Source: Nemertoderma westbladi (taxonomy: Eukaryota > Animalia > Xenacoelomorpha). From it: a DNA stretch of 33,582 nt. The position numbers and the translations under genes are program-made. Positions within the stretch are counted from its first letter, which is position 1, and the number at the start of each line of letters is the position of its first letter. The stretch is taken from assembly GCA_032718475.1 (NCBI GenBank), contig JAUCBJ010004733.1, positions 1 to 33,582 of the forward strand, written 5' to 3'. Below the pieces are notes generated by a model. It was not told where the DNA came from and ran no database searches. It saw nothing but the letters and a program-made list of their open reading frames with translations. Shown one piece after another: positions 1,876-29,835 of the stretch.

Positions 1876-3639
1876 TAAACCTGTAGGCTTACATTGGTTA
1901 ACCTAACTACAGTACTACCTACGTACATAACGTACGATGTGCTGCACCATCAAATAAAAGATTAATCGCTGTTATTGGTGTTAACATCATCATAGCAAAC
2001 TGTTAACTTATACTCATTTAATGTGCCTTACTTGTAACATTCAAATCTCGGGACTCAAATTTCTTTACATCGGTGGAGCAAGAACTATTTTTCATCTCGA
2101 GGATGTTGGTCTGTCTGTCTGTCCGTCAGAAAATTGGAAAGCACGTTATCTGCCTAAAAAATTTCCTACAGGGATTTTCCTTGTCCGTGATATCATTTCC
2201 GATGTCAGGGGTTTTCAAAATCGGCGGTAGGCGTTAGGCAGTATCGTGTCTGTGTGTATGCTTGTCGGTGTCTGTCTATCGTCAAGGCATAACCTACAGA
2301 CGGATAGACTATTTGGAAGCCATCAAATGCGAAAACCGACATTGCAAAGTGAAATCACCATCCATGAGAAAACCCCCATTGCAAACTTCTTAGCTCGGTT
2401 GGGTACTTTTTTCGAAATACCATTTCACTGGGAAATTTAAGTTGTCTCTTCATGGTGCCACCTATTTTTGCCATTATGGCAATTTTACTTTCGGCTCAAG
2501 CATTTTTTAAATAAACCACCAGGTAAAACGGGATCCGAAATGAAACGAAATTTGAAAATGAAATTAGGCATTTCGAGATAATTGTCTTCAAAGTTTAAAC
2601 TTGTCGAGCACAACTGTCTTTCTGGAGGGGACTACAGTACTACTGGTTGGTTAATAATGTCTGACATGATGGAAGCACAAACAACGAGCTAAAATTGTGG
2701 TTTTCGGGGTCACAAATTTCAATCAAGATGCCTGTTTTAATGTTTGGTACAATCTAGTCTGTCTGTCTATTCGTATGTCTGTCTGAATTGCTTAGCGGAT
2801 AGACCGGGAAACGGTCAGAGTGCGATAACTAAAGTCAAAATTAAATTATGTATGAATATTAATATTTTAAATCGGTTGGTCGGACGGTTTTGTCAGTAGG
2901 TTCGGTTGGAATGTGGGAAGATAATAATATGGGAAGATGGTGCCACACGGCGCCGATTTGTGAAGGGCGCCAAATTAGAAAATTCCGTATATGAGGAGTG
3001 GCAATATCATAAATAATAGAAAAAATATATAGGCCCCTACAGCCCTAATAAATAAAGTTAAGTACAGTAGTTTGACTTTAATAAGTATACAGTAGAAAAC
3101 ACGAGGTTTGATTTGATTGATATGTAATAAATATATTTTCAGATAAAAAATCTAGGAAAGTAATAATTGTAATCCTACTGTACAGCTAATAACCAACAAA
3201 GTAATAAACAGTAATATAGCAAGTACAGTAATAAACAACATTTTTTGGTAATAAAATCGGAATTTTGTGAATTTGTGGAGGGGGGGAGGGGGGTGGGGGG
3301 GGGGGGGGTAGAATCAGCTTGTAACAGGGCTCCAGAAATCTCGGCACGCCTCTGATCTCGATCTTTAGATACTGTCTTACCGTCCCCGCAATAAGTGCCA
3401 CGATCGTGTACCAAATCATCGTACAGTAGGCCTATATTTACCGCATATGTGCGTGATTCTATTGCCAAAAATGATAAGACCGTGGATAAAATGATTACAA
3501 ATTGCGTTGAACATGAAAGCTGCATTCAATGATGGAATTATCTGAAGTCTGAAATACGTTTTATGCTCACCAACTAGCAACTGTATAACTACTGTATGTA
3601 TATGATTGTATATGATGTATCGTCAATGATTATTGTTCA

Positions 3640-3961
3640 GGCTACCAATATAGACTGCAAGTCTCGCGTTCTTAAAGAAAAAGTAAAACTGAATAAGTCA
3701 ACCAACACCAGTCATATATTTATTGACAATGATCTAACTAAGTTACAGTCCAAACAGGCGTTCCTCCGTCGACAATCCCGCCCTAAAAACGCAGCTCGAT
3801 TAAATTTGCTGCCCCCCGCCGCCCCCATTCCTAACCACACCGACACATCGACCCCAGCTTCTCAGTTTGACGGAGCATCGGGAATGGGAACGGGATCGGA
3901 TTCACCTCGTTCTGTCCCTCCCACACCTCGAGATACCACCGTACCGAACCAGGGAAACTGA
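3640..3961 (+). CDS. CR1-type ORF1 C-terminal remnant
   Basis: IFIDNDLTKLQ...RR motif typical of LINE ORF1 C-termini, followed by a Pro/Ser-rich tail ending QGN*. The upstream ATG in the ORF track is probably flank sequence. Confidence 0.6.
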
Positions 3962-3990
3962 AACAGGGAGAAAGTCGCGTCCGCCCATTC

Positions 3991-6801
3991 GTGGACTGTA
4001 CCGTCTTTAATGCGCAGTCCTTGGGAAATAAATTGCCGGAACTGCATTTATTTCTAAAGGAGGGTAAATATGACGTAGTTGGAATTACGGAGACGTGGAT
4101 GAGGGAGTCCTTCACAGATCGAATGATAAATGGCGGCGAGAACTACAATGTCTATCGACAGGATCGCTCGGGTACTACAGGAGGAGGGGTTGCCATCTTG
4201 GTAAGGAAGGGAATAGAAGTCGTTAAGATAAAGTCTGTTTTTGATAAAGATGACTATGCACATCTTGAAGTTGTAGCCTTGGACCTTGTGGGACAAACGC
4301 CGTCTAGGTTGGTGTGTGTATACCGACCCCAGACTTCATCGGAATCATGGTCGTCTGCTAAAGACGAGAGTTTATGTCGCTGCCTGACTGAGCTATGTGA
4401 GACTAAACATCCCGTAGCTATATTTGGCGATTTTAACTTGCCGTCGTTGAATTGGAAAAATTATGATCATCCTGATACCGAGTTATATAATTTATTTGCT
4501 AATTTTTCTCTAGAAAATGGGTTAACTCAATTGCAACATGAACCCACACGCTTTGACAACACATTAGATTTAGTTTTTTCTTCAGATGATTTGTTTATCT
4601 CAGATGTATTTGTCACAACGCCCTTTTCCACTAGCGACCACTCTAGTGTGTGTTTTAGTATTTTGTCACCTAATCAGACAGAGTCAATTGAACTTAAATT
4701 AGGTTATTATGATTTTAGACACGCTAACTATGCAGATTTTTCAAAGTTTATTGACCGTAATAATTTTCGAAATGCGTTTGGTAATTGTAATACTGTTAAT
4801 GAGTACTGGTCTGTTCTTAGTGATGCACTAAAATCTGGTATTGATAAATTTGTGCCATTTAAAATGTTCAAGGTCAATTCCAGAACTAAGCTGTTACCGG
4901 CCTATGTGAGAAAACTTCAGAAAAATAAAAAAGCATTATGGCGCCGCAGACACACCATAAATGGAATGTCTGAATACAAACGTTGTGCTAAAGCCACTGC
5001 GAGAGCGGCGTTTAGAGCTGAATGCATTCGTGAAAACCATGTGCTTAGTTCTGGAAAGCCGGATGCAATATTTCAATTTGTAAACAGTAAGAGACACAAC
5101 CGATCTGGTATTTCACCCTTGAAATTTAAAGGGGACACTGTTGTCGATGATTGTACTAAGTCCAAAATTTTATCTCAGGTTTTTTCTGAAAACTTTACAT
5201 TAGATAATGACACTTTACCTATTTTTAATCATAGAGTGCCTAATAATATTAGTAAATCAACAATCAATTTGTCTCCCTTAAACGTGTATACTATACTTCG
5301 TAAAATGGATGCGAAAGTGAGTAATACTCCAGATGGTTTACCTAGCTTCATGTATTCTAAGTTAGCTCGTTGTTTATGTAGTCCGTTGTCTGTTATATTT
5401 AACGTCTCGTTTGTCACTCATGCTTTACCTACTGTGTGGTTAACTGCAAATATTGTGCCGATATTTAAGAAGGGCAACCCCACTGACCCATACAATTACC
5501 GCCCAGTTTCACTTACCTGTGTAGCGTGCAAGCTAATGGAACTCTGTGTTAAATCCGAACTAGCTGATTACTTACGAACGAATAAAATTATAACGAAGGC
5601 GCAACACGGATTCATGAAACGTCGATCCACATGCACCCAGCTTTTAACCTGTTCAAACGAATGGTTTAAGGTATTAGACTTTCGCCATAAAGTTGATGTG
5701 GTGTACATTGACTTAGCCAAAGCATTCGATTCGGTTGTGCACAATAAATTGATCCACAAATTGGCTAGTTACGGAATTACTGGTAACTTATTACTTTGGA
5801 TTGGTGCGTTCCTTAGTGATCGTAGACAATGTGTAGTTGTTGGTAATAGTACCTCGGAATTTGTAAAGGTTATATCTGGTACTGTACAAGGCAGTGTACT
5901 GGGGCCGCTATTGTTCCTGCTAGATGTAAACGATCTTCCTGCACAACTAGAAAACGTTTCCTGTGATCTATTTGCAGATGACTTAAAAATACACGCGCGT
6001 TCATCTGATAGCGATTTGCTTCACGCAGCACTTCGTAGTCTGGAGAAGTGGACAGCCGAATGGCAACTTACTATAGCGGCTCACAAGTGCACTGTAGTTC
6101 ATTTTGGTGGTAAACAAATAGATGTCCCGAAACAATATTTTCTTAACGGTATGTTACTTAAGCCCGATACAGAATGTAGAGATTTAGGCGTAACTTTTAG
6201 CGATAATTTAAAATTCGATCGACATTGTAAAGTTCAAGCTGCTAAAGGTTTTAAGATCGCAAATTTAATTTTTAGGTGCTTCCATACCAGTAATGTAAAA
6301 GCTTTATTAACGGCATATAAAGCGTACGTTCGGCCGCTGGTAGAATATTGTACTCCCGTATGGTCCCCTTTCCAACTGGGCTCCATTGATCTGATCGAAA
6401 GAGTCCAGCGTTATTTCACGCGTAGGTTATTTGCTCGATGCCGACTAGGTAATATAACCTACATGGAGCGTTTGCAGTTTTTGGACTTACAACCTCTAGA
6501 AGTCCGTAGGTTAATTTTCGATTTAAAAATGACATATTCCATTATTCACAATTGTGTTGATTTGGATTTTGATTCCTTTTTCACTGGTGCGAGTACACTT
6601 AACACAAGAGGTCATAATTTTAAACTGTTTCAATTTCGCGCTAGACTCCAAATTAGTAAATTTCGTTTTAGTAACCGAGTTGTTTCAATGTGGAATAATT
6701 TATCGGATGACATAGTGAACTCATCCAACAAAGATATTTTTACGTCTAGATTGAAGGAGGCAAATCTACTAACCTATTGTAAATTTAATCGATTGCTATA
6801 A
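3991..6801 (+). CDS. LINE ORF2: apurinic-like endonuclease + reverse transcriptase (CR1-type)
   Basis: Uninterrupted 936 codons. EN motifs NAQSL, ITETW, GGGVA, GDFN, LDL, SDH; RT motifs YRPVSLT, QHGF, DLAKAFD, QGSVLGP, FADD, DLGV; CR1-like C-terminus TRGHNFKL..FSNRVV.MWN.L. The frame is open from 3871 with no ATG before the EN motifs. Confidence 0.95.
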   Translation: MDCTVFNAQSLGNKLPELHLFLKEGKYDVVGITETWMRESFTDRMINGGENYNVYRQDRSGTTGGGVAILVRKGIEVVKIKSVFDKDDYAHLEVVALDLVGQTPSRLVCVYRPQTSSESWSSAKDESLCRCLTELCETKHPVAIFGDFNLPSLNWKNYDHPDTELYNLFANFSLENGLTQLQHEPTRFDNTLDLVFSSDDLFISDVFVTTPFSTSDHSSVCFSILSPNQTESIELKLGYYDFRHANYADFSKFIDRNNFRNAFGNCNTVNEYWSVLSDALKSGIDKFVPFKMFKVNSRTKLLPAYVRKLQKNKKALWRRRHTINGMSEYKRCAKATARAAFRAECIRENHVLSSGKPDAIFQFVNSKRHNRSGISPLKFKGDTVVDDCTKSKILSQVFSENFTLDNDTLPIFNHRVPNNISKSTINLSPLNVYTILRKMDAKVSNTPDGLPSFMYSKLARCLCSPLSVIFNVSFVTHALPTVWLTANIVPIFKKGNPTDPYNYRPVSLTCVACKLMELCVKSELADYLRTNKIITKAQHGFMKRRSTCTQLLTCSNEWFKVLDFRHKVDVVYIDLAKAFDSVVHNKLIHKLASYGITGNLLLWIGAFLSDRRQCVVVGNSTSEFVKVISGTVQGSVLGPLLFLLDVNDLPAQLENVSCDLFADDLKIHARSSDSDLLHAALRSLEKWTAEWQLTIAAHKCTVVHFGGKQIDVPKQYFLNGMLLKPDTECRDLGVTFSDNLKFDRHCKVQAAKGFKIANLIFRCFHTSNVKALLTAYKAYVRPLVEYCTPVWSPFQLGSIDLIERVQRYFTRRLFARCRLGNITYMERLQFLDLQPLEVRRLIFDLKMTYSIIHNCVDLDFDSFFTGASTLNTRGHNFKLFQFRARLQISKFRFSNRVVSMWNNLSDDIVNSSNKDIFTSRLKEANLLTYCKFNRLL

Positions 6802-8764
6802 TTTTTATTTCAATATTTTTAGACGCTATTGAATTACCCTGTATTTTTATACTGTATATATGTATTTTATTTTTTAGACTGGACAAGTTTTACTGGACTG
6901 CCAAGTCGATTTTAATGTATGTTGTCTTACTAGATATATTTTACTGGACTGCATAGACGTTGGAAATCAAATTTTCTTACTGTAGGCTAATTTTATTATG
7001 TCAAATTCATTTCTTAATGTACTGATATATGTTTTTATGTCACACTAATGTTTTACTGTATATTTTTAGACTGGACTATTCATGCAATATTGTTAGTTGT
7101 CGGTATTGTACATGGATTAATATTAAGTTGTAGGATATTTAGTGTTGTCTTTCACCTATTAGTGTTAATTTTTAACCTTGGTGATTTTCTCCCTCTATTA
7201 ATAATTTTATAATATATGAGGTGTTAATAATAATAATAATAATATACTGCTAAGTTAGGCGTAGCGTTTACACCGATTAATTTGGGGCATGTCTCTATGG
7301 TTTGGTTATGCAATCATATATGAAGTGTTGTTCCGTGCTAAAAAGGCAATATCGCTCTGTCATTCCCACCTTCTATCTGACTATACAGTAGACTGTTAGA
7401 CAGCTAGACTATGGCAATACTGACTGTGCTGTGCACAGTATTTTATCCAAGGTGTGGATTACAGATTAAGGGATTATAACTGCTGAACGGAATTCAAAGG
7501 AATTAAAAAAAGGATAATATTATACAGTAGGCCTATTTCTCCACCAACAATAATTGGGTTCAGAAGTTCAGAGATCAGAGTGAGACTCGTAGCCACACAC
7601 AGAAACATACTGCACTGCAGAGTGTCAACAAACTGTGAACTGTAGGCTGAGAGTTCAGCAGTTGGCCTATTCAGCAATCTCCGAAAGTTTTGAACACTTT
7701 CACACTCGGACACTGCAGCATTGTAAATACTGAAATACTACAGTACTAAATACAATGAAATAGTGTAGGCCTACATTTAAAGTTACAAAGTTATTTGATA
7801 TTTTTTTCATAATTTGTCTGGTACCGGTACTGACGACTGAGTGGTACCGGTGTCCGGTACTGTACATACGAAAATATAAAACGACCTGAAACGATTTGAA
7901 ACAACCTACATGACCTATGACTGTATGAAACGATCTGAAACACCCAGACGACCACGAATGGATAATTCCATCCAAATTCGACAACTCGCGGTGGCATGGC
8001 TGCATGGTTCATCGATTTCGTTTATTTTTAGATATAGGCTATGGTCGGAAATGGCATAAAATGACACCTGATGAAATATTTCTGATGATGGTTTATTGGT
8101 TTTCGAGATATTGCACTTCAAACTGTCTGACTGTCAAAGTTTGCGATTTATTCGAACATATCCCCAAACCCCAACCCAATGAAACCTACAGAAAATCTTT
8201 CTGACCTGTGGCAGTGTGGGTGGAGTGTCAATTTTATGTCTGTATGTTTGTTGTACACATAAACTGATAAATAGGTCTCATACACATTAAAACTGTAAAA
8301 CCTTGAATAAACACCACCCACTTGTCAGACCAACTTTTCTATGTGGCTAAAGATTGTACTTTTCGACAAATTTTGTCTTCTTGAGGCTTGAGTTGGAGTG
8401 GTGTGAATAGCGGGCAGCGGGTAGCCCAAAACATTTAGTATATAGTTAGATATACCAAAAGGGGGTTCTGTGGTACAATTTTCATGTACCACCAGCAAAT
8501 CAGACTTCCATAGGCCCTACCACTGTACCATCATTTGGAAAATTGAAACTTACTGACTTACCAAAATTGCCATACTTAGGAACATCGCTGCAAGCGTCTG
8601 ATAAAATATGGGCAGATGCAGAGATGGGTGCTTGAAATGAATCATGACTGCATGACAGTATACTACAATCGACATGCTGCATTGCAGCTGCATCAGTGCA
8701 TTATATATATATTAAGAATGCTGTACCGGCTTGTCGACAAAATTGCGCCTCCATAACTCCCTTA

Positions 8765-10685
8765 CAGTCGGTGAGAAGTCAAAAATTGGACTTCAAGTCC
8801 AATTTTAGACTTCAAGTCCAATTTTGGACTCCAAAGTCCAATATTGGACTTTAGTACAACTCCAAGTGTACCCAAGCTGCCATACTGCAGTACTGTATAT
8901 CGGTATTTCAATCAAAACTGCATCCCGTATCAGTACATATATATTACATAATTACAATGCAACATTATTTTAATGATCAAATTAATTATTATATGTATTA
9001 TAAACAGGGATCGTACACATACAGTCAGACATTAGTTAGTAGTTACTTTTTGCGGTAGTGGTATAGCTTTGCGGTAGCCTTACTGCAGTACTGCCTTAGC
9101 GGTGTATACCGCGGTAGCGTAGTTGAGTTATAGTTGTATAGTTCATTCATACCCATACTGCCATACCTGTGGTATTTTCGTATGGCTGTATGGCAAAAAT
9201 AAGACTACTGTAAACTGTAACCTATTATGTTATTGAGTTAATGTTTATTGACTAATTGTTTTGATTAGGTTCACTGTGTCAAGTACAATGCACACATCTC
9301 TGCATCTCCAACCAGACACTATATCACTTTGGAGTTGGAGGTGTCTGTCTCATTCAGTCATTGGTTCCCCCAAGCTTGAACTAGAACAAAGCCGCCTCCA
9401 CTTTGCAGGACATCGATTTAAGCCGTGAGGACCAGCCAGTGCACCTCATGGAGTGAATAAGCATGGTGGACAGCCCATTCTTGAGACACATCTGTCTTAA
9501 AGGACACTGGCCTTGAAGATGCGGATGATCTAGCAAATGTCATGGGTGATAAGGCTGTCAGGCTGTAAGAGTGTAAGGGAGTTGTGGAGGCGCACTTTTG
9601 TCAACAAGCCGGCACAGCATTCTTAATACATAATAGGGCCTATACTGCTATATATATAATGCAGCTGCAATGAATCATGCCGATTGTAGTAGTAGTATGT
9701 GGTGAGGTTATAGGGCTCCTTGGCTCCTTCAATTGGTTAAGTCAAAAGTGGCCGTTTATTGTTTTAGTTAGAAAAGCCTGCCTCTGTAACCTGTTCCTTT
9801 CCCTCAATTTGTTTATGATTATGACGTCTGTTACTTGTTACTTCTGTACTTATTATGTGGAGACCCCAATGCGTTAATCAGTTACTAATCCCGTTTCATT
9901 ATCCTGTTATCCAGCTGTTTTATAATACCCTTCCTGTTGTATGGAAAAATTAGAAGAGATGGTGGTAGCATCAACTTGTAGTATTTCTTTCTGATAGGGC
10001 TCCCATAGCCTTAGACGAAATCGTAGCTTGTACTGTAGTTAGCCTTAGCAGCAGCTGCAGTTGGCTAACCTGGCATTGCTACCAGTATCCACGAAATATA
10101 ATTTGTAATTAAATATTTGTTGGAGCATAATCTAATCTAGTCCTAAAGACACTATAAAGTCCTCGGTACATAAGGCAGTAAGGTTAGACATAACATGAAT
10201 GTAAATTGTGAACTAAACAATATGTTAAAAGTAAAGTACAAAGTACCTAGAATGCTAGAATGTACCATTATATTCTAAGTACAGTACAGTCAGTACACTG
10301 AAGATAACATACAGAGCTGCAAAGGTAACTTTCCATAACTTAACAGCTGTCTGGCTGTCTCTCATCTGTCATGCTACATGTTCGATTCTCAATGTCACGT
10401 CCAAAATTAGACTTAAAGTCCAATATTGGACTTTTGTAAAAATTCAAAGCCTTATAAAAAAAGTTCCCCCTGGTGAATTTCAGGTCCCCCTGTTCAAAAC
10501 TCTTATTTTTTGATATATTTTCGATTAAAATTAAAAAATCCCGCCCGATCCTATTACCCAAGGCCCTGGAACAATTGGCTGATTTGAAGTCCAATATTGG
10601 ACTCACAGAAGTCCAATTTTGGACTTGAACTGGAGTCGAAGTCCAATTTTGGACTCAAGTCCAATTCTTGACTTCTCACCGACTG
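8765..10685 (+). mobile_element. Non-autonomous TIR DNA transposon 'A' (CAG...CTG ends, 5-bp TSD CCTTA) carrying a captured RTE 3' fragment
   Basis: TIR CAGTCGGTGAGAAGTCAA(A/G)AATTG at 8765 with its reverse complement ending 10685. CCTTA at 8760-8764 and 10686-10690. Subterminal AAGTCCAAWWTTGGACT palindromic repeats at both ends. It interrupts an otherwise continuous minus-strand RTE fragment. Confidence 0.85.
9268..9697 (+). mobile_element. RTE 3'-terminal fragment inside element A
   Basis: Aligns by eye to 1193-1557 (ggttcactgtgtcaagtacaatgcacacatc ... gcagctgc ... gtagtagtagta). Confidence 0.85.
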
Positions 10686-12220
10686 CCTTATCACCCATGA
10701 CATTTGCTAGATCATCCGCATCTTCAAGGCCAGTGTCCGTTAATACAGTAAGATGCGTCTCAATAAAGTCATGGCCATGGGCTGTCCACGATGCTTATTC
10801 ACGCCATGAGTTGCACGTGCACTGGCTGGTCCTCATGGCGAAAGCAATGTCCTGCAAAGCGGAGGCGGCTTTGTTCTAGTGTCAAGCTTGGGGCAGTGGG
10901 GGAACTATTGAGACACCTCCAGGCTCCAGCTCCAATGTCTGAATGTTATAGTGTCTGGTTGGAGATGTGTGCATTGTAGGCCTACTTGATACAGTGAAGT
11001 GAATAAACATTACACATTAACTCAATAACATAGGTCTGTCTGTAGGTTACACTTCCAACTTCTGCACTTACAGTAGTCTTATTTTTGCAATACAGCAATA
11101 CGAAAGTGCCACAGGCAACAGGTACGGATATGAATGAACTAGGGCCTATCAGCCTATACAGCTATAATTCAACTACTGCTACCGCGGTTGGCGGTATATA
11201 GTATATACCTGTATACCGCTATGGCTACCGCAAAGCCATAGGCTGATAGGGCTACCACTACCGCAAAAAGTAACTACTGTACATGTACAATCCCCTGATG
11301 CTAATCCCTGCTTATCTACTTATATTAATTAATTTGATAATTAAAATAATGTTGCATTGTAATTATGTAATATATTGTAATATGTACAGATGTATGTACA
11401 AATGTATGTACCAGTCAGCCAGTACCAGTCCATTCAGCCATTGCAGTGTAGTACCCGGTATTGATTTAAATACCGATATACACTACACTACTGCATTATG
11501 CCAGTTACAGAGTTATGCAGCGCAGCTATGTATGCTATTCCAGTATTGCAGTATTGGCTGATTGGGTCTGGGTGCTGGGTGTTGGGGCCATGACAGCATG
11601 ATGTTCTATCTCTATGATCTATTCATACTGTCATATGCTCATATGGGTACCGGCTGACCGGACCGGTACACTAGGAGTTGCACTACAGTCCAGAAGTCCA
11701 ATATTGGACTTTGGCGTCCAAAATTGGACTTGAAGTCTAAAATTGGACTTGAAGTCCAATTTTTGACTTCTCACCGACTTCCGTTCCGACTGTAGGGAGC
11801 GATTTTAACAATACAAAATGTTATGAAAGCGAGCGAGCGAAGCGAGCGAAATTTTTTTTTGTGGCAGATTCTTCTTTTCACATCTGCTCTGCACGAACTT
11901 TAAATTCGTTGAGAGCACAAGCTTTGAGAGCCCTCCTGTCGCTCAGCGCCAGGGCACTCAAATCGCGCCTGTCGCACCGCGCCAGTTCACAATATTCTGC
12001 AAATCGCGCCAGGACTCTCCGGCGCGATTTGCAGTCTTACTTCGCGCCAGTCTGCCAGTTATATTCACCTAACTGGTGTATGCATTGCAGTCGGAGGCCT
12101 AGAGTATTATTGATATTGAATATACATTGATAATTCTGCAATTGTTTAAACTTAATACAGTGATAATAATATTTGAGGCTGGCGGAGTTTGGGAGAATTC
12201 CAGATTTACAACCACCACAG

Positions 12221-12771
12221 ATGCCTCTTGCTCAGTTTCCAGATGATCCTTGGCAAAACCATGAGAAGAAACCTGAAGGTCTAGAAGGACAACCAAGTGA
12301 AGATCAAGCGATGGCTACCGAGGCGGCTGTCGATGAGCACGAAATCGAACTTATCGAGCACGTGAAGAACGGCTTCCAAAAAGCCGATCCGTCCCAATTC
12401 GAACTGCTCAAGGTTCTAGGCCAAGGATCTTTTGGGAAGGTGTTTTTGGTGAGAAAGATAACTGACACCGATAGCGGAACGTTGTACGCAATGAAAGTTC
12501 TAAAGAAAGCAACGCTGAAAGTACGGGATCGGATTCGGACCAAAATGGAGCGGAATATATTAGCCGATGTTCAGCACCCTTTTATTGTTCGACTGCATTA
12601 CGCTTTCCAAACTGAAGGTAAACTTTACCTTATTCTAGACTTCCTCCGTGGGGGTGATTTGTTCACTCGATTATCCAAGGAGGTTATGTTTACTGAAGAA
12701 GACGTTAAGTTTTATCTATCCGAGTTGGCGTTGGCATTGGATCATCTTCATTCGTTGGGAATTATTTACAG
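12221..12771 (+). CDS. RPS6KA: p90 ribosomal S6 kinase (RSK), coding exon 1
   Basis: Starts [12 protein letters not shown] (cf. vertebrate RSK MPLAQLADPWQ). N-terminal kinase motifs [40 protein letters not shown], ...GIIYR. Donor AG|GTTAGG at 12772, phase 2. Confidence 0.95.
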
Positions 12772-13502
12772 GTTAGGCCTAGATCCTTAGAGAGCTACCG
12801 GTTGCCGGTAGGGTAATATGATGCAAGTCAAAGTAGAGCTGATCAGGTCTACCTTTAGCTTTTATAGAGTTTACAATATACTGGTTCAGTTGTTCGTTTG
12901 GAGATACAAAAAAGTGCGGTTTCAGGGTTATATAAGAAGTACCGGTAATGCAATTTACGTGTGGTCCTTGATACAGAAACATAGTACCTAGGCAGGGAGT
13001 GAAGTGTAGTGTACCGTAATAATTGCTCTGGAATGTAAAGAGCTTGTGTTATGTGTAGTGTGTCTGTCTGTATCTTTATAATGGGTGTATGATGTAGGTT
13101 GAGCGCAAGGTCAGGTACTCACTCTCCTTATCCTTTTCTTTAATAGGCTGACACTGAAACTGTCTCCTGCAACGACATGACAAGTCCCACCCCATTATCT
13201 CAATACATCTTTTACTTTCGCTTTCAGATTTTTAATCTTTTAAAGAAATGTCGCCGAAAATACAAGTAACATAACAGCCACAGCGCACATTTGTTGGTAT
13301 AGGTGGATAATTTGGATATATTTATTGAATTAATATTGATTAATATTTCTTCATTGAGCATAATTTATTGAGATAGATTCAATAATTTGTACTAACGGTA
13401 TATATATACTCTAGATTAATACATTAATGGAAGTGAACCTACAATGTAACAAAACCATTATTACATTTTATATTAGCAATTTTACGTATTTTTATATTTT
13501 AG

Positions 13503-14740
13503 AGATTTAAAACCGGAGAATATATTACTTGATTCAGATGGGCATATCAAACTGACGGATTTCGGACTGAGCAAAGAGTCTATAAGCGACAACAACCCAA
13601 AAACATACAGTTTCTGCGGCACCGTGGAGTACATGGCGCCGGAAGTTGTGAATCGCAAGGGCCATTCCCAGGCGGCGGACTGGTGGAGTTACGGCGTGCT
13701 AATGTACGAGATGCTAACGGGGTCGCTGCCCTTCCAAGGCCCGAATCGTAAGGACACGATGGGACTTATACTCAAAGCGAAACTCGGTATGCCCCAGTTC
13801 CTGAGCGCAGAAGCGCAAAGTTTGTTGCGCTGTTTGTTTAAAAGGAATCCGGCGAACCGTCTCGGTTGCGGCGCCGGGGGGATCGAGGAACTCAAGAGAC
13901 ATCCTTTCTTCGAGACGATCGCTTGGGATCGACTCTTCCGTGGCGAAGTGACGCCGCCCTTCCGACCGTCGGTGTGTCGCGCCGAGGACACCTTCTACTT
14001 CGACCGGGAGTTCACGGCGCAGACCCCCAAGGACAGCCCCGGCATTCCCCCCAGCGCAACCGCCCATCTCCTCTTCAAGGGTTTCAGCTTCGTCGCTCCT
14101 TTAGTTCTCGCCGACGAGGAGATGCCCCCCGCGGTGCCCCCTCGCAGCGGCGGCCCCCCCAAGTCGCTGGACGCGCAACTCCTACAGAACGGGTTGGCCC
14201 CCGCGCGATACTTCCTCGACGACTACCAACTGAAGGAAGTCATCGGGAAGGGTTCGTACAGCGTCTGTCGCCACTGCGTCCACAAGGCGACCCAGCAGGA
14301 ATACGCCGTCAAGATGATAGACAAGTCGAGACGGGACCCCACAGAGGAGGTCGACATAGTGCTGAGGTACGGCGACCACCCCAATATAGTCAAAGTGCGG
14401 GATATTTACGACGACGGGAAAATCGTATACATGGTGATGGAGTTGATGCGGGGCGGCGAGCTGTTGGATAGGATCATCCGGCACAGACATCTGTCGGAAC
14501 GGGAGGCCGCCGAGATCATGTTCGTTATCATAAAGGTTGTCATGTTTCTCCACGAGGGCGGCGTCTGTCATCGCGATTTGAAACCGAGTAACATTATGTT
14601 CGCGGACGAGTCCGGCTCGCCTTCCTCCATTCGTATCTGCGATTTCGGGTTCGCTAAACAACTCCGCGCCGATAACGGTTTGCTTATGACGCCCTGCTAT
14701 ACCGCAAACTTTGTTGCGCCTGAGGTTCTTAAGAGACAAG
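13503..14740 (+). CDS. RPS6KA: RSK coding exon 2 (rest of N-terminal kinase domain, linker, most of C-terminal kinase domain)
   Basis: Acceptor ttttAG at 13501-13502 restores R-DLKPEN, DFG and YSFCGT. Turn motif TPKDSP, hydrophobic motif FKGFSF, C-terminal domain [26 protein letters not shown]. Donor G|GTGAGT at 14741, phase 1. Confidence 0.96.
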
Positions 14741-16076
14741 GTGAGTTTATTCGGCTGTGGGAACGGCACATCGATTAGGCCTATCATTCATTATTATTAC
14801 CGTTGGGCTCCGATTAGCGAAATCGGCAATGACCACTATGTTGGATATGTTGGATAGAACAGGTGACTTCCAGGTTGGCTGGCTTTACCATTACTTTAGG
14901 GGCTCAGATAAGAGGTTAACCTAGAAATACTTACTGATATCTTTAATTTCCGCATTCTACGTTACCATGATGGCCTATTGCCACTCAACAGTCAATGCTA
15001 ATCATCTACAGCCGCTATACGCTCAATCCAAAGTAGTTAGCCGTCTTATTGATTCACATTCATGGATTATCATTTATGGATAAAAAATGAGGGGCAAATT
15101 TGCCTTGAAAATACCATTTTGCACATTTGCACCTTATTTTTCAATGTGCAGTGCTGCATATGCATTATGCATGGCAGCAGGAGGGATGTTCATTCTTACT
15201 CCTTCTTATTTTCCTTCCGGTTTTTTAAGAATTTATATTTCCCACATCTTTTCCACGTATAAGAGATGTAGTTCCGTGTTGCGTAGGTGTGGCAGCGGTA
15301 TATTGTAATTATGCTACTAACGCACAATCGCGTAAATAATTCAAGATGTATAAGGTAACACGGTGTGTGGGAGGGAAGTTGTGTTCTACAGATAAGGGAG
15401 AGGGGTGTATTAACAATTGCAATTGGATATGTACGCCACATGTAAAAGTAGTGATTGGGATAATTAACTATTCCTTAAAGTAAATGAGTCCTTGTCAGAG
15501 TTGCATCTTAGTAAGAGAGTGGCCGGATGTACGGGATTGGTTATACAGCTAATATAATGATGATTACCTCTGTTGTTCATCGAACAGTGACACAGGTAGA
15601 TGATTAGCTAAGATGAAAGAATAGTATATTATATTAATCGCGTAACTGTTAATATTACGTTGATTTTAATAAATCTACTCGCGACAGGAAGGGGTAAATA
15701 ACTTTGAGCGAGAGCGTTGGTTGGGGGGGGGGGGGGGGGGGGGGGGGGCTGGGCTGGGGATTACATGGATGGTGAACCGTATATTTTCTATTGTCCCAAT
15801 AGCATAGCATAATATGTGTGTGCTATAGAGATTCCCATAGGTGCAGTGTGAGTGGCTATATGGGTGTACTGTACCCCACGCATTCATTCCGCTTCCTCCG
15901 CACTTTATTTCCATAATAGTGAACATTATTAGGTGTTACCTAGAAGAATTCCCGTAGCATACAATGTGCTACCGGAACTGGCTAAAATATTACATTAAAT
16001 AAATTGGAGATGAGCTGTTGCAAATGTAATTAAAGGTGTAATATTATGGTTTTGTTCATTAGGTGGGAGTTTGAAT

Positions 16077-16183
16077 GTCAGGGGCTAGTGGCTGAACTGG
16101 TTAACGCTACTGATGAGGCCTGATAGGCTGAAACGTACGTATAGCGCTGGTTCAACCCCCGGTGACGCGCTTTCCCATTTTTT
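16077..16183 (+). promoter_or_regulatory. tRNA-like internal Pol III promoter (A box, B box) with T6 terminator, framing the hammerhead
   Basis: A box TGGCTGAACTGG 16089-16100; B box GGTTCAACCCC 16149-16159; GTCA-GGGG/CCCC-GG-TGAC closing pairing; TTTTTT at 16178-16183. Confidence 0.7.
16105..16146 (+). ncRNA. Type I hammerhead ribozyme (minimal palindromic stem III)
   Basis: Stem I CGCUA/UAGCG; core CUGAUGA 16110-16116; stem II GGCCU-GAU-AGGCU; GAAA 16130-16133; stem III within the palindrome ACGUACGU; cleavage triplet GUA with predicted cut after 16141. Confidence 0.88.
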
Positions 16184-16480
16184 CCACTTCTGAACAAAAC
16201 CATAATATTACACCTTTAAAATATTACTCGCACAAGTTAACCTGAAACATAAATACCGGTACGTCATTAGTGCTGCGGTTACCATAACGCGGTCTTGACG
16301 GTACTCTACATCACTTACTCAGTCCATCTTTCATCCTCCAGTCCCTCATGCTCCACGTCATCCTACTCCATACTCGTGTCCATTCATACGGGATACTGCA
16401 CTATGATACAGTTTTCTAATTTCATTGCTCGTTATTGCTATTTTAAGCTGATGTAACGAACTATTATTGATGATTTTTAG

Positions 16481-16953
16481 GATACGATAAAACCTGCGAT
16501 ATTTGGAGTCTCGGCGTGTTGCTGTACACAATGTTATCCGGTAGGACGCCATTCGCCATGTCCAACAGTGACACACCGGAGGACGTCCTAGCGCGGATTG
16601 GAACCGGACACATCCGGTTGTCCGGGGACAACTGGGATTACGTTACCGACAGCGTCAAGTACCTCATATCGAACATGTTGTACGTGGACCCGGCCAGACG
16701 CTGGACGGCTGCCCAGATACTCAACAATACCTGGTTACAGAACCGACACCAACTCCCCGTGCAACAACTCAGTCTGGATCGGGACCTGTCCCAGGTGCGA
16801 CACGACGTGGCCACCACCTTCCGTGCTATGAAGCACGAGGCGGGGACGACGCCGGCCCTGGCCCCCATTACTGCGAGTCATTTAGCGCAACGACGGAAAG
16901 AGAAAAAGGTATCCATGGAAATAGATGCGGATATTCAGGCTCGCATTAAATGA
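16481..16953 (+). CDS. RPS6KA: RSK coding exon 3 (end of C-terminal kinase domain, ERK docking site, stop)
   Basis: Acceptor tttttAG at 16479-16480 gives G-YDKTCDIWSLGVLLYTML. ERK-docking LAQRR; TGA at 16951-16953. The three exons sum to 2262 nt = 753 aa + stop. Confidence 0.95.
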
Positions 16954-18113
16954 GGCTGTTATTATTGTCTTATGTTACTTAAAACTCAGGCTGCTGGAAA
17001 AATAATGGAATTAGGGTCACTTATTTACTTTCTATTAAAATATAATATAATTCCTTTTCCAGTACGGCAAATATAATATTCAGGAATGGAAAAACTCAGA
17101 TGCTCTTTTCGGAGCACAGAGATTCAACTTTAGTCATCATCGGGTAAGTTTTGAGATGACGTCACAGGAAAGTAAAGTATATTATCACGTCATATTTTGA
17201 TACAAGTTGCTTTATGGGTTATTGTGTTCTAAATTGTTATTTTTTGGTACGGTTGCTTTATTTTGTTTATTTGAACAAATGTCTTTATAAACTTTATTGT
17301 CCAAGTTACCATGTTTGGTAAGTATTATGTATTTGAACCCGAAGAACGTGGACGCTCAGGTAGGAGCTGTTGGTAGTCAGTCACCATCGACTTGGTGTCT
17401 GCTGTCTGTCTGGATAATTATGAGACCCGTTCTGGTCTTATTGGATTGGTCAGCGGAAGATTTATTTAACTCTTTTATGGGTCTGGTTTCTCTGCAGTTG
17501 CAAGACATAAAAACACAGCAAAATATTTACCATTTTTACTATTAACTTGGTGTAATAATATTACTAACATGGTGAGCAATAAGCATTAAATATTTTAATT
17601 TTCTTAAATTCTAACATTCAGAGATACTAATTGGGATTTTTGGTGCTATAAGTTAATACGTACGGTGTTTTCTTTACTTCCATTACCACTACATCGTCAT
17701 TTACACTAAACGCGCACATATTGGCTAATTGGCTATTGCAACTACAACTATTTGTGTTTTGAATGTGGATTGTGTTCGAGGGATTCCAAAATTTAACACT
17801 TTTTAAAATGATTTTTTTTTATGTGATCCAAGTGAGTTAAACTTTTCCGTATTGTTAATTAGGGGAGACTGAGAATTTCCTACAAAGTATCACCGAAAGA
17901 TAAAGGCGTAAATATTGTGACACTCTTTACCAGAACTAATGTGACTAATGACGTGATCTATGAACTCATTTAATATCATGATGATATTCAATGATCAATA
18001 GTACATAACATTTATAACGATGAACTATGTAGTATTAATATATACCACTATAGTATGTATTTTATATCTATATGCCAATAATTACTGTACTTTGTGTATG
18101 TATATACTGAGAC

Positions 18114-18378
18114 GGGGGGGGGGGGGGGTGCTTGATGTAAATCCCATCTCTTCGAATTAATATCTTGTCTTGATAAATTAACCACGTCAATTATCAGATA
18201 AGGGAAATGACCAGGTTTTAGTGGCACGTTATTCGAACCAAAACAATAAACTATCATCAATAGAGCAGGTTACAGTTTTATTTTGTATGGAGTGTATTGA
18301 GCAGTTTTTTGCGTCGATTTTCCCCTGAAAGGGGATACATTTTGATTGGCAGGAATCCCCCCCCCCCCCCCCCCCGCC
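18114..18378. mobile_element. Copy of a dispersed ~240-bp MITE-like family, bounded by G-run and C-run
   Basis: Shares gcacgttatt..aaccaaaacaataaac, caggttacag and tgcgtcgatttt with 25928-26144 and 28865-29073. Confidence 0.6.
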
Positions 18379-18854
18379 CTATCTGTTATACCTATACCAA
18401 TGCAATATGCAGTTTGTTTATATGTATAAATATGTTGCATATGGAACTATAATACCAATAATCGGTTCATAGTGTTTATTATTTATTCCAAATTCTAACA
18501 TTATCTATATTATCCGTGTTTTTACAGCGCTTTGTTATAATTAATAGAACATTCCAGATCTGCGCGATTAAACGGAATAAAACTGATTTATTTTCTTAAC
18601 CAGGCACTACATGGTTGAACCCGAGAAACAATACAAATAATATATATCGGCTACAGCTTATAGTTACCCATACCGGTACACGTACATCACTGGTATCGTT
18701 GACTGTGGATACTGGAATCCGTTTTGTGCTGATAACATTTGTTTTTAATTCATTGTCATACTCTGGATTAATATTTAATTCCACGATTTCAAAAAACGTA
18801 GTTCTCATGTGCAGTATTATAGTTTGGTAATGTTAGAATTTTTGAATAAAACTT

Positions 18855-18967
18855 CATACATACATACATACATACATACATACATACATACATACATACA
18901 TACATACATACATACATACATACATACATACATACATACATACATACATACATACATACATACATAC
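18855..18967. repeat. (CATA)n microsatellite, about 28 units
   Basis: Perfect tetranucleotide run. Confidence 0.98.
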
Positions 18968-19829
18968 TTGCTGCGATGTAATTGACAGACCCTTGTATCT
19001 TTATTTTCAGGCATTCACTGCAGCACAATAAACAACAAATAAACGACCGTATTGTTACCCGATAAAGTTGATTATAATAATAATTAGTAAAGTAGTTATA
19101 ATTAATTAGATATTAATTTTCCTTTGGGATGGAATAAATCATTATCTGGTGTCGATGGTATTTTTTTACCATTTTTATTTGGACATTATGCGTTTGTTTG
19201 GTAAGTCCGTGTAAATGGAGCTTTAAAGATAAATTCAGCGGATTTTTTACGCACAACAATAAATTTAATACAAATCCACAAAGAGTCAATACGTAGCGGC
19301 AATTTCAAATGCACCGGAATACCGGTACCGATAACTGCAAGAATTTTCGAAATTACGAGGTCACTTTTTTTCTTCAATTTATACTTTTTCGGCCGAAAGG
19401 CAGCGCATCAGAACCGCAGTAACTATGGGGGCAATATAGTAAAATACTGCAGTTCAATTTATTTTGTAACACTATTTCATTCTACCTTTTATTAAAGAAT
19501 TGGGCAACAAAAAAGTACCAATTTAAGAATAAAATTACGTATTACATGGAAACAAACCGTATAACATTGTTTTTCTTTCAATATTCTCTCGACCCTTTAT
19601 TAACCTTGAGTCTGGAGCTCTGTATGTAAAATACCTCGAGATTAGTGTAAAAAGTTATACTTTTTTCCCCAAGTAATAAGTAATTATTTATTGGGTATAC
19701 TGTTAGTTATTGGTACTATGTATGTATGGTATATGAATATATTTTAGCATTATATATTTATTCAATGAAATTATAAGAAGTTTGGCGTAATACAAGTCAA
19801 ATAAATGATACAGAACGAAATTATATGAT

Positions 19830-20661
19830 AGGATCGAAAGAGTGATTGGTGTTCCAGAATAATTATATTAACTGTATAATAAGCTGCACGTTATTCAATG
19901 GTCAGTGTACACTGACTGACCAGTCACTAATTAATTGCTACATCTCGGAGACTATAACCATTACAGACCATAAGTCGCATACTATTTTTAAATTTATCAA
20001 AAGTGTCAGATAATCTGATAATATATTAAGGTTTTAACTGATGCAAAAATTATAAAATTCCACTGCAAGGAAATATAATGTGTTTTTGCTTTTTTATGTG
20101 TAATTTTTTATTTTTTTTAGTCTAAAAACCACAATTAGTTTAAAATAAATATCAGCTGTGAAATTTTTTTGGGAACAATGGTTTTTGAGGTCGACTGCGC
20201 ACTGGAAATTTGTGCGTAATCCCTGACCTAGTGGCCGAAGAAAATTTACTTTTTTTTACTTTACTTTTAGAAACAAAAACGGGCAAAATTGTGACTAAAG
20301 TGACACAAAAATGATTCGTTATTAAACTATTGTGGTTTTTAAACTAAAACAAATAAATAAATTACACCTAAAATTAATAGGGTAATCACAATTTTATTTT
20401 GTGAAAAATCTCCTCTAACACTAGTGAAAATCATTACAATTTCCTTGCAGCAGAAGTATATAATTTTTTTTGCATCACTTACTTGAATATATTTGGTAAT
20501 TTATGATACATTTAAAAATTACATGCTACTTCCATTTAACCGAATAAAATAAATTAATGTCATACTGGTCAGTATATATTTTATTACTTTCCCAATGAAT
20601 CATAGCTTATTGCAAAATTAATTATAATATTCTAGAACGTCACTAATTCGTTCCTTATCCT
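19830..20661. mobile_element. Old foldback/MITE element with ~330-bp degenerate inverted arms
   Basis: Paired blocks: tgatgcaaaaa/tttttgcatca, ctgcaaggaaat/atttccttgcag, aaaaaccacaat/attgtggttttt, tgaccagt/actggtca, aataagct/agcttatt. Confidence 0.65.
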
Positions 20662-25544: not shown

Positions 25545-25890
25545 GCAGTTACGCACTTTGGGCAGTTTCGCACTGTGGGCGCACTGTGAGCAGTTACGCG
25601 GTGTGAGCAGTTACGCAGTGTGAGCAGTTACGCAGTGTGAGCAGTTACGCACTGTGAGCAGTTACGCACTGTGAGCAGTTACGCACTTTTGGCAGTTTCG
25701 CACTGTGGGCGCACTGTGAGCAGTTACGCGGTGTGAGCAGTTACGCGGTGTGAGCAGTTACGCAGTGTGAGCAGTTACGCAGTGTGAGCAGTTACGCACT
25801 GTGAGCAGTTACGCACTGTGAGCAGTTACGCACTTTTGGCAGTTTCGCACTGTGGGCGCACTGTGAGCAGTTACGCGGTGTGGGCAGTTA
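25545..25890. repeat. 17-bp minisatellite (GCAGTTACGCACTGTGA) with higher-order periodicity
   Basis: About 21 monomers; the variant order recurs at 130 and 147 bp. Confidence 0.95.
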
Positions 25891-25920
25891 AGATATGAAT
25901 GACGATACAGGGGAGGGGGA

Positions 25921-28018: not shown

Positions 28019-29181
28019 CTTTTTATAAGTTAAATCTTACCGCATTCAACTTAGGAGGCAGTCGGGAGAAACTGGACGCAATTCTTATCTCGGCGAATCT
28101 CGGAATATTTCGTCTAAATATTATATTATCAATTTGTAGGAAAATGAGCAGGTTAGACTACATTGGCACGTTATTCTAACCAAAATTTGTCGCATTTGAA
28201 ATAAAGTTTTGTTTATTGTTTTGGTTAGAAAATTGCGCTACTGTAACCTGCTCCTTTCCCTAAATGTTTTACATTAAGTTTTTAAACCAACTAAACACAT
28301 AATTTGGTGTTTGCCGTCATTTTGCTATATTAAATCCTTCCATGGGAGATTTCATAAGCGCCAAGACAAGATGGTTTAATTATGTTTATATTGTTATAAA
28401 AGTTAGTATTATATTGTTATAATATATTGGCTTGCTTACTAAATCCTGTGCGAAGGCCCCACGAACTATAATTAATTGTAAATAATACAGCCTAATTGCA
28501 TGCATGAATTTATTGAATTCTTCCAAAACATTTCTTTATAATGCCATGTCTAGTCTAATTAATCCCTAGCTTTAAATAGCTTGAATGCATGAGTTTATAT
28601 TATTAATCAATATTTTATTTAAACTTAATGAGTACTGGAGTATTTAATCTTATAGTGAAAAGTAAAGAATCCTAGACCTTTATTTTATATTAGCACAAAA
28701 CAGTAATAATATCAGAATATAGAAACAGCAATAATAATTTCTGGCTAGCATAGTGTTGTTATGAGAGGTTAAAAAAATTAAAAAACTGTAAAATAGCAAA
28801 AGACATGTTAAACACAACATTTTCCAAAATATTCAAACTTTGGAAACAGTGAGGGAAACTGGTTGCAAAGCCTATATCGGAGTATTCATATCTCGTCTCA
28901 TTGTTATATTATCAAATATAAATTTAGGAATAGGAGTTGGTTACAGATGCACGTTATTCTAACCAAAACAATAAACTAAAATCATAGAACAGGGTACAGT
29001 TTTATTTTTGAGAATAATCAGTAAATAAGCTATTACTTGCCTGATTTTCCCCAGCCCCCCCCCCCCCCCCCCCGCTCCCATTTGACAATTTCAACTTTCA
29101 GATTCAGTTCAGTTTCATTGCATAGTAACTTATTGTTCTAACTTAAATATTATCATTAATTTTGGTAGAATTGTTTCTGAT

Positions 29182-29835
29182 ATGATAATGGAAGCTCGTA
29201 AGCGGAAGTCAACTTGTCCGCGAAAGATTCGAAGTAACAATATGACTAGTGGCGAAATCAACAGAATTAAATCAGATTTGTGCCGTGAGTTGTTAATTAG
29301 TGACACGTCAGATGAAATCGTTAATAATAACGATCTAGGCACTTCCACAGCTGTGGTATCAGCTAGTCTTGATGTTGACGGTGTCGAAGAGCGAGTAGAA
29401 GAATCATCAGACCTAGCTACGATTTCCGAGATACTAAGCATTGCTCATCCAACTGTCCACGGTCTAACTACAAAGCATATCACTACCAACTCTTCCTCCA
29501 CATCAAATTGCTCAGATGATGTGGAGATATTAAACTACGTACCCCATAGGAAGCTGCCCAGGGACCTGTCTGTAATTCCTTCAGACATGATTCATCAGTG
29601 GAAATCAGTGAGGCCTGTTACCGCGAAGTCTTTACTCTCCACTAAACCGGCGAGTTTCTATATGAAACAGTTCAAACTGATCACCCCGAAGGGAGGAAGT
29701 TCCGAGAGACAGTTGGTTGATAACGATAGAAAGACTTCGGCTCTGCTCAGTGAACATACAACTCCTGTGACGTCATTACCAGAAGATAGTGAAAGCTGTA
29801 ACGAGGAGAGTATTTCTAACAAATGTGTCGAACAG
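29182..29835 (+). CDS. Probable exon of an unidentified Ser/Thr-rich protein gene
   Basis: 218 open codons in AT-rich DNA with a basic RKRK motif, ending at a consensus donor CAG|GTGAGT (phase 0). No recognisable domain. Confidence 0.55.

What the first reader, a model, noticed from the sequence alone, without database searches (positions are those of the whole stretch)
7916..12059. Dense field of 5-bp-duplication + CAG/CTG scars upstream of RSK
Seen: 31 instances of NNNNN-C(A/T)G-NNNNN counted by eye in ~4.1 kb, starting at 7916, 7995, 8122, 8207, 8235, 8259, 8288, 8548, 8614, 8643, 8689, 9153, 9181, 9295, 9350, 9640, 9839, 9899, 10346, 11145, 11238, 11382, 11411, 11430, 11503, 11544, 11553, 11589, 11623, 11649 and 12047. 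A rough chance expectation is below one. I noticed only isolated ones elsewhere (20010, 22747). Paralogous copies show they are 8-bp insertions (CATCT-ctg-CATCT at 9295 versus a single CATCT near 1219). 27 of 31 have a central A/T. Known: Sleeping Beauty leaves TSD+CWG+TSD, but with a TA target. Inference: these are excision footprints of a CAG-ended, 5-bp-TSD transposon with Tc1/mariner-like staggered cutting that repeatedly visited this possibly open-chromatin region and rewrote it.
Basis: partly seen in the sequence, partly recalled or inferred. Interest (0 to 1): 0.82.

Follow-up and report, generated by a model that had tools for sequence, protein, structure and literature searches.

The report
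Transposon excision scars crowd RSK promoter
The 4.4 kb just upstream of a ribosomal S6 kinase gene carries 43 perfect 8-base insertions (a 5-base duplication around CAG or CTG) that are likely the scars left each time a small jumping-DNA element, one copy of which still sits there, cut itself out, so repeated visits would have written hundreds of bases of new DNA.

Summary
All 31 listed sites are exact X5-C(A/T)G-X5, and 12 more lie in 7700-12100: 43 against 0.25 expected, with 9 in the other 29 kb. Only a 5-base repeat with a 3-base CAG/CTG spacer is enriched. Paralogous repeat copies outside the field, and high-copy contigs from public runs, lack these 8 bases, so they are insertions. The field holds the likely culprit: a 1,921-bp non-autonomous element (8765-10685) with perfect CAGTCGGTGAGAAGTC inverted termini and a 5-bp duplication, CCTTA. 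Its empty site is seen in other genomic copies. CAG and CTG are equally frequent. The duplicated 5-mers show a two-fold symmetric preference (YMWKR), and the same nucleotide was hit repeatedly. This fits Sleeping Beauty-type excision (inferred): a 3-nt stagger, then CAG overhangs annealing around an A·A mismatch, but at a 5-bp rather than TA target. No transposase, whole genome or organism name could be obtained, so the superfamily stays open (hAT5-like, Tc1/mariner-like or new). So does the cause of the clustering (short-range hopping or a promoter hot spot). Verdict: first reading supported; new variant of a known kind; interest 0.66.

The parts
7725..12059 (.). Field of 43 exact X5-C(A/T)G-X5 scars (about 10 per kb), plus about 18 in excess of chance that carry one mismatch
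8765..10685 (+). E1: intact non-autonomous cut-and-paste element, 1,921 bp, with termini CAGTCGGTGAGAAGTC...GACTTCTCACCGACTG (16/16) and no ORF with a transposase domain
8760..8764 (+). Left copy of E1's 5-bp target site duplication, CCTTA
   Evidence: the empty site is seen in other genomic copies (joint 8758->10686)
10686..10690 (+). Right copy of E1's target site duplication, CCTTA
8765..8872 (+). Left end of E1: the terminal inverted repeat followed by four tandem 19-bp units, each holding the palindrome AGTCCAAnnTTGGACT (a presumed transposase binding site)
10380..10685 (+). Right end region of E1: a MITE-like unit with further AGTCCAAnnTTGGACT copies. It carries no scars. Contig depth suggests a family of several hundred copies
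11665..11792 (-). A third element end of the left-end type, inverted. It is 99% identical to 8766-8851 over 86 nt. Its tip is damaged by a 12-nt partial duplication
9549..9580 (+). Compound scar at the same TAAGG site of the LINE tail that E1 occupies in the other copy. It reads TAAGG-CTG-[GCTGT-CAG-GCTGT nested]-TAAGa-gTG-TAAGG, which implies at least 3 visits
11376..11693 (.). Scar-built block of 318 nt where the high-copy family version has about 78 nt. It holds 9 exact and 3 one-mismatch scars. Lag-8 autocorrelation is 0.41
8661..8764 (-). Tail part of a LINE 3' fragment (repeat R) that E1 split
10691..10998 (-). Head part of the same LINE 3' fragment split by E1. It carries scars at 10889 and 10934 that other copies lack
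9268..9697 (+). Second copy of the LINE 3' fragment, inside E1. It carries scars at 9295, 9350, 9554 and 9640
12170..12790 (+). First coding exon of the RSK (p90 ribosomal S6 kinase) gene. The field ends about 110 bp upstream of this open frame

Best explanation
The 43 exact 8-bp insertions are most likely excision scars of a non-autonomous cut-and-paste DNA transposon family that makes 5-bp target duplications and ends in CAG...CTG; one intact member (8765-10685) still lies in the field. Shown: the sites are insertions relative to paralogous copies. The element has perfect inverted termini and a 5-bp duplication. Its empty site exists elsewhere in the genome. Inferred: on leaving, the transposase would cut the non-transferred strand 3 nt inside each 5' end, as Sleeping Beauty and mariner do. 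Each flank would then keep a 3' CAG overhang next to its copy of the duplicated 5-mer. The two overhangs would pair C:G and G:C around an A·A mismatch. End-joining and mismatch resolution would give CAG or CTG with equal odds, for a net gain of 8 bp per visit. Also inferred: the pile-up reflects very short-range re-insertion from resident copies, or tethering to their many binding sites. Re-use of preferred, scar-duplicated targets would add to it, so that repeated visits built new sequence.
For: Enrichment: 43 sites against 0.25 expected, and only for a 5-base repeat with a CAG/CTG spacer. Peeling removes 46 units with CAG/CTG against at most 7 for any of the other 31 spacer pairs. Insertions: 7 of the 8 scars that lie in repeats with out-of-field paralogs are absent from those paralogs. 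High-copy contigs from public runs lack 8 bp at 8883, 9180 and 9552. Those contigs also lack 62 and 177 nt of the block 11376-11693. Element: it is the only X5-CAG...CTG-X5 pair in the window with at least 12/16 terminal complementarity, with TSD CCTTA and 16/16 termini. Contigs with a single TAAGG join 8758 to 10686 in three runs. In other genomic copies, differing flanks follow ...CCGACTG (loose ends at 11779). Repair signature: 19 CAG to 24 CTG, p=0.54. Target: the preference is two-fold symmetric, Y-M-W-K-R. G occurs 2/43 times at position 1, C 2/43 at position 5 and A/C 7/43 at position 4 (p=6e-6). E1's own CCTTA fits. Re-hits: 5 neighbour pairs lie within 1 nt in scar-free coordinates against 0.77 expected, P=0.001. 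Literature: the SB canonical footprints TACAGTA/TACTGTA and the 3' overhangs of Tc1/mariner (PMC6943129 and PMC4378557, passages read).
Against: Only one intact element with both flanks is available, so the family's 5-bp TSD rests on one copy plus the scars. No transposase was found in the window or in public collections. The cutting chemistry is therefore inferred from the scars alone. No site was seen occupied in one haplotype and scarred in another. No 8-bp indel was listed in the low-copy part 10985-12150, though 9 rows of that table were not shown. The runs may include the sample the window was assembled from. Simple peeling explains only 96 of the 239 extra nucleotides in 11376-11693. 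Scars also lie inside E1, so more than one mobile copy must have been involved. Why the field is so sharply bounded (7725 to 12059) is unexplained.
Confidence: 0.8

Rival explanations
1. The scars have the same origin, but the clustering is a chromatin effect. The region upstream of the RSK start would be an open, promoter-proximal hot spot that attracts insertions from copies anywhere in the genome, rather than short-range hopping from resident elements.
For: The field ends about 110 bp before the first RSK coding exon. Repeat copies of the same families elsewhere in the window carry few or no scars, so location matters more than sequence.
Against: Chromatin was not tested. No scar field lies next to the other candidate coding region at 29086-29850. 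Three element ends with 14 binding-site palindromes sit in the middle of the field. Same-nucleotide re-hits point to site re-use or short hops.
Confidence: 0.3
2. The family is an ordinary hAT5 or Transib-type element, both known to make 5-bp duplications, and the CWG comes from hairpin opening at the flanks rather than from element-derived overhangs.
For: [quoted passage not shown] Multiple subterminal repeats are common in hAT and CACTA elements (recalled).
Against: Hairpin repair gives variable, flank-complementary additions and deletions (PMC3499496, passages). Here the three inserted bases are constant, match the element's own first and last three bases, and do not depend on the flanking 5-mer.
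Confidence: 0.1
3. Generic replication slippage or templated micro-duplication produced the 8-bp repeats, with no transposon involved.
For: The field also holds a modest excess of 5-7 bp tandem duplications.
Against: Slippage would give X8-X8 with any content. Here 43 of the 101 repeats with a 3-base spacer carry CAG or CTG, and no other spacer exceeds 6. The base after the second copy is C in only 13 of 43 and the base before the first is G in only 7 of 43, so the unit is not an 8-bp tandem repeat.
Confidence: 0.02
4. Assembly or sequencing artefact.
For: None specific.
Against: Contigs of runs from two studies reproduce 7600-8034 (4 scars) and 10985-11302 (5 scars) with 0 gaps. One of them may be the source sample.
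Confidence: 0.01

Closest known systems
Canonical excision footprint of Sleeping Beauty and other Tc1/mariner elements (TA-CAG-TA / TA-CTG-TA)
   Same: A 3-bp scar equal to the element's terminal CAG/CTG lies between two copies of the target duplication, with A or T at its centre in about equal shares. The element ends begin CAGT. Repeated binding sites lie inside each end.
   Different: The duplicated target is 5 bp with a loose symmetric preference (YMWKR), not the obligatory TA. No Tc1/mariner transposase was found. TA-type scars (TACWGTA) occur separately and are spread over the whole window.
hAT5 group of hAT transposons (5-bp TSDs; Kapitonov and Jurka 2007, as cited in PMC12730594)
   Same: 5-bp target duplication, CAG...CTG termini, short terminal inverted repeats with subterminal repeats, and an animal host.
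   Different: Known hAT excision leaves variable flank-hairpin footprints (PMC3499496), not a constant element-derived CWG. The fifth terminal base is C, where my recalled hAT motif has G. The Repbase report itself was not available to read.
Transib / CMCT clade (5'-CA..TG-3' termini, 2-5 bp TSDs; PMC12730594 passage)
   Same: 5-bp TSD and CA...TG termini.
   Different: RAG/Transib-type cutting makes flank hairpins (established knowledge, recalled). The terminal sequence is not the CAC-type heptamer.
Piles of TA-flanked excision scars noted earlier in this scan in placozoan, diatom and coral windows
   Same: Scars accumulate locally, stack on one another, and a scar can recreate or duplicate the preferred target.
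   Different: Those scars sit at TA sites. This is the first case in those notes with a 5-bp duplication, and the first with the likely donor element still in place.

Membership tests
Non-autonomous cut-and-paste DNA transposon (MITE-like) | Terminal inverted repeats | tested here: met
   16/16 complementary termini at 8765 and 10685, and a third end at 11780 with one mismatch
Non-autonomous cut-and-paste DNA transposon (MITE-like) | Target site duplication and a matching empty site | tested here: met
   CCTTA lies on both sides. Contigs in three runs join 8758 to 10686 with a single copy
Non-autonomous cut-and-paste DNA transposon (MITE-like) | Multi-copy, with no transposase gene of its own | tested here: met
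   Contig depth over the ends is hundreds of times the single-copy level, and other copies have different flanks. No ORF has a transposase domain
Tc1/mariner (IS630-Tc1-mariner) | TA target, duplicated on insertion | tested here: not met
   The TSD is 5 bp. The 43 duplicated 5-mers are diverse
Tc1/mariner (IS630-Tc1-mariner) | Footprint made of the element's terminal 2-4 nt, from a staggered cut inside the 5' ends | tested here: met
   The scar is constant CAG/CTG, equal to the element's termini, in a 19:24 ratio. The cut itself is inferred
Tc1/mariner (IS630-Tc1-mariner) | DD(E/D) transposase with paired-like DNA-binding domain | not testable with these tools
   There is no autonomous copy in the window, no genome is held, and the collection scans found nothing
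hAT (hAT5 group) | 5-bp TSD | tested here: met
hAT (hAT5 group) | Excision through flank hairpins, giving variable flank-complementary footprints | tested here: not met
   The scars are constant and derive from the element, unlike the footprints described in PMC3499496
hAT (hAT5 group) | hAT transposase (BED finger, RNase H fold with insertion, hAT dimerisation domain) | not testable with these tools
   No autonomous copy is available
Transib / CMCT | 5-bp TSD and CA..TG termini | tested here: met
Transib / CMCT | RAG1-like transposase and hairpin-type flank repair | tested here: inconclusive
   The transposase could not be tested. The constant CWG scar argues against hairpin repair

The most novel reading that the evidence does not exclude
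This would be an undescribed kind of cut-and-paste transposon that combines a 5-bp staggered target cut with Tc1/mariner-type 3-nt staggered excision. It hops over distances of tens to hundreds of bases and returns to its own scars. One promoter-proximal locus would then record more than 60 germline visits, and stacked 8-bp scars would have created a tenth or more of its sequence de novo.
Probability: 0.35. Interest if true: 0.8.

Novelty: new variant of a known kind. Interest (0 to 1): 0.66.

Why it matters
Excision scars are a fossil record of cut-and-paste transposition, and they reveal the cutting chemistry of a family without any biochemistry. Here they would assign a 3-nt staggered excision to a family with 5-bp duplications. 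I found no description of that combination in seven literature searches. The locus also shows how repeated insertion and excision can lengthen and rewrite DNA right next to a gene start. One 318-nt block is about three quarters additions. The locus offers a simple word, X5-CWG-X5, with which to map germline transposition hot spots across this genome.

Tried and rejected
- **Whole genome:** none is held, so the genome-wide spacer test, the TSS/ATAC test and the search for an autonomous copy could not be run.
- **Collection scans:** scans for the terminal repeat in metagenome contigs and viral contigs returned 0 loci.
- **Transposase:** no ORF in the window has a transposase domain (17 ORFs scanned against Pfam).
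- **Organism:** not identified. The RSK exon is at most 70% identical to any database protein, with vertebrates and Lingula at similar distance. The LINE ORF's best hit is 46%.
- **Earlier notes of this scan:** none for this genome or for the element end.
- **Polymorphism:** two read-laying runs showed paralogous copies without scars but no clear allelic 8-bp indel. Large parts of 8062-8523 and 11414-11686 have little or no contig cover in some runs, which proves nothing.
- **Tolerant peeling:** applied to the block 11376-11693, it explained only 96 of 239 extra bases.
- **Nested-copy model:** I considered that E1 had inserted into a second, inverted copy of the same composite element. It predicts homology between 7700-8660 and 9698-10685, and BLAST found none. 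The origin of the inverted arms stays open.
- **8-bp TSD reading (X5CWG duplicated):** rejected, because no second CWG follows.
Full report
**Observation.** I scanned the window exhaustively for a 5-base word repeated after a 3-base spacer.
- The window holds 358 such sites, of which 52 have spacer CAG or CTG.
- Within 7700-12100 there are 43 (24 CTG, 19 CAG) among 101 sites with any spacer. The next commonest spacer has 6.
- In 500 second-order Markov simulations of that stretch the mean was 0.25 and the maximum 3.
The 12 it missed are 7725, 7736, 8518, 8883, 9081, 9554, 10171, 10889, 10934, 11088, 11154 and 11204.
- The signal is specific to repeat length 5 and spacer length 3. Counts for spacers of 0 to 8 bases are 22, 25, 39, 101, 15, 17, 15, 27 and 13.
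- Iterative removal of X5+spacer units takes out 46 units with CAG/CTG, against at most 7 for any of the other 31 complementary spacer pairs.
- The remaining 29 kb holds 9 exact sites against about 1.1 expected. The word is therefore mildly enriched everywhere and about 40 times denser in the field.
- Forms with a single mismatch number 23 in the field against 4.4 expected.

**They are insertions.** Eight exact scars lie in repeats that have copies outside the field.
- In alignments of the LINE 3' fragment R and the short repeat S, 7 of the 8 are clearly absent from the out-of-field copies: 9295, 9350, 9554, 10889, 10934, 8689 and 9839. The eighth, 9640, sits in a variable TA run and is ambiguous.
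- In contigs of public sequencing runs of the same coded organism, high-depth (multi-copy) versions of the repeats lack exactly 8 bases at 8883, 9180 and 9552.
- The two inverted arms of the locus, 8766-9559 and 10681-11790, are 92% identical in aligned columns. They differ by gaps of 8 bases and by much longer blocks (64, 60 and 59).
- A high-copy contig has 23 nt where the window has 85 (11376-11460), and 34 nt where it has 211 (11483-11693). About 239 of the 318 nt in that block are therefore additions specific to this locus.
- Simple peeling accounts for 96 of those 239 nt: 9 exact and 3 one-mismatch scars.
- The rest shows a strong 8-base periodicity. Autocorrelation is 0.41 at lag 8, against 0.17-0.31 at other lags. 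I read the rest as nested and decayed scars; that is an inference.

**The element.**
- The 16-mer CAGTCGGTGAGAAGTC occurs at 8765 (+) and 10685 (-) without mismatch, and at 11780 (-) with one.
- I searched the whole window for X5-CAG...CTG-X5 with at least 12 of 16 complementary terminal bases. The single hit is 8765-10685, with TSD CCTTA and 16/16 termini.
- This element interrupts a LINE 3' fragment. Contigs in three runs join 8758 to 10686 and carry a single TAAGG, which is the empty site.
- In other genomic copies the terminus ...CCGACTG is followed by unrelated flanks (loose ends at 11779).
- Each end carries tandem 19-bp units with the palindrome AGTCCAAnnTTGGACT. There are 14 copies, all inside the field.
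- No transposase is encoded in the window.

**Mechanism.** The element begins CAG and ends CTG, and the scar is the duplicated 5-mer, then C(A/T)G, then the 5-mer again.
- This is the Sleeping Beauty canonical footprint with TA replaced by a 5-bp duplication.
[quoted passage not shown] This leaves 3' overhangs, and end-joining gives TACAGTA or TACTGTA (PMC6943129 and PMC4378557, passages read).
- The same logic applies here. Two CAG overhangs pairing around an A·A mismatch predict equal CAG and CTG. The observed split is 19:24, p=0.54.
- Flank-hairpin repair, as in hAT elements, gives variable additions complementary to the flank (PMC3499496, passages). It does not fit a constant CWG. The cut itself was not observed.

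**Target choice.**
- The 43 duplicated 5-mers show a two-fold symmetric preference, Y-M-W-K-R. G occurs 2/43 times at position 1, C 2/43 at position 5, G/C 9/43 at the centre and A/C 7/43 at position 4 (p=6e-6).
- This symmetry is what a dimeric transposase would be expected to give, and E1's own CCTTA fits it.
- In scar-free coordinates, 5 neighbour pairs lie within 1 nt of each other against 0.77 expected, P=0.001.
- The TAAGG site of the LINE tail carries a compound scar of at least three visits in one copy (9549-9580) and holds E1 in the other. The two copies of this LINE tail outside the field are clean at that site.
- The field also has a modest excess of 5-7 bp tandem duplications. Examples are ACCGG-CTG-ACCGG-ACCGG at 11649 and CCAGT-CAG-CCAGT-A-CCAGT at 11411. 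These may be non-canonical scars.

**Layout and age.**
- Scar density is 14 in 7700-8764 and 16 in 10686-11780, but only 2 in 9900-10685.
- There are none in the 530 bp of the three element ends, where 5.2 are expected (P=0.006).
- There are none in 3036-7724, which holds a full-length LINE ending in (AAT)n at about 7245.
- There are none from 12060 to 20009. The first RSK coding exon begins in the frame that opens at 12170.
- The ratio of one-mismatch to exact forms suggests about 3% decay per site. That makes the scars somewhat younger than the 92%-identical arms. This is a rough inference.
- Contigs from two studies reproduce nine of the scars without gaps, so they are not assembly errors. 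One run may be the source sample, and no allelic 8-bp indel was seen.

**Why here.** Scars inside E1 mean that more than one mobile copy was involved.
- I favour short-range re-insertion from resident copies, or tethering to their many binding sites. Re-use of targets that each scar duplicates would add to it.
- A promoter-proximal hot spot is the main rival, and one window cannot exclude it.

**Classification.** Known eukaryotic groups with 5-bp duplications include hAT5 and Transib (PMC12730594, passages).
- Both are thought to excise through flank hairpins, which the scars contradict.
- Tc1/mariner chemistry fits, but its defining TA target is not met.
- Seven literature searches found no description of 5-bp-TSD plus CWG scars. 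The library lacks most subscription journals and Repbase Reports.
- I file this as a new variant of a known kind. The scar logic is known, and the combination with a 5-bp target and the extreme local pile-up appear new.

**Limits.** The evidence comes from one window. No genome is held and no autonomous element was found. The history of the inverted arms is unresolved.

Noticed in passing
whole window: TA-flanked palindromic words that look like Tc1/mariner/pogo-type excision scars are enriched, and they are not clustered in the field. TAC[AT]GTA occurs 38 times against 10.1 expected, TAGGCCTA 10 against 0.28, and TACCGGTA 12 against 0.64. One in-field LINE-tail copy has a TA-GGCC-TA insertion that the 3 other copies lack.
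   Followed up: partly
8765-9559 versus 10686-11780: The left part of E1 is an inverted copy (92% identity) of the DNA lying to the right of E1. That DNA includes a second left-type element end. The terminal 86 nt are 99% identical, much closer than the rest of the arms. The origin is unresolved: nested copies, aberrant transposition or gap repair.
   Followed up: partly
11765-11800: The third element end has a damaged tip. Read on the minus strand it is CAGTCGGAACGG followed by AAGTCGGTGAGAAGTC, a 12-nt partial duplication of the terminus. This is not an 8-bp scar.
   Followed up: no
7700-12100: There is an excess of short tandem duplications with periods of 5-7 bases. Five-mer repeats number 22 at lag 5, 25 at lag 6 and 39 at lag 7, against 11-19 at lags 9-18, except lag 12 with 27. 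Some sit directly beside canonical scars at the same 5-mer, so they may be non-canonical scars.
   Followed up: partly
12170-16953: The RSK gene here has few, long coding exons (12170-12790, 13477-14778, 16474-16953). Its best database matches are only 69-70% identical (vertebrate RSK1-3) or 66% (Lingula). No protein from the organism itself appears in the searched collection.
   Followed up: partly
3871-7245: A full-length non-LTR retrotransposon has an uninterrupted 976-codon frame (endonuclease plus reverse transcriptase) and an (AAT)n tail. Its best database hit is 46% identical. It carries no X5-CWG-X5 scar, so it is probably younger than the field.
   Followed up: partly
26762, 26955, 28630, 28708; also 22747, 22907: A thin second scatter of exact X5-CWG-X5 scars lies near other copies of the R and S repeats. 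No element end is nearby.
   Followed up: no
31277-32782; 25546-25907; 18855-18966: Tandem arrays with 41-bp and 17-bp units, and a (CATA)n microsatellite.
   Followed up: no
11820-12060: Between the field and the RSK exon there is a run of GCGAGCGA repeats and several CGCGCCAG-type words. Contig depth suggests a low-copy repeat, possibly promoter elements.
   Followed up: no
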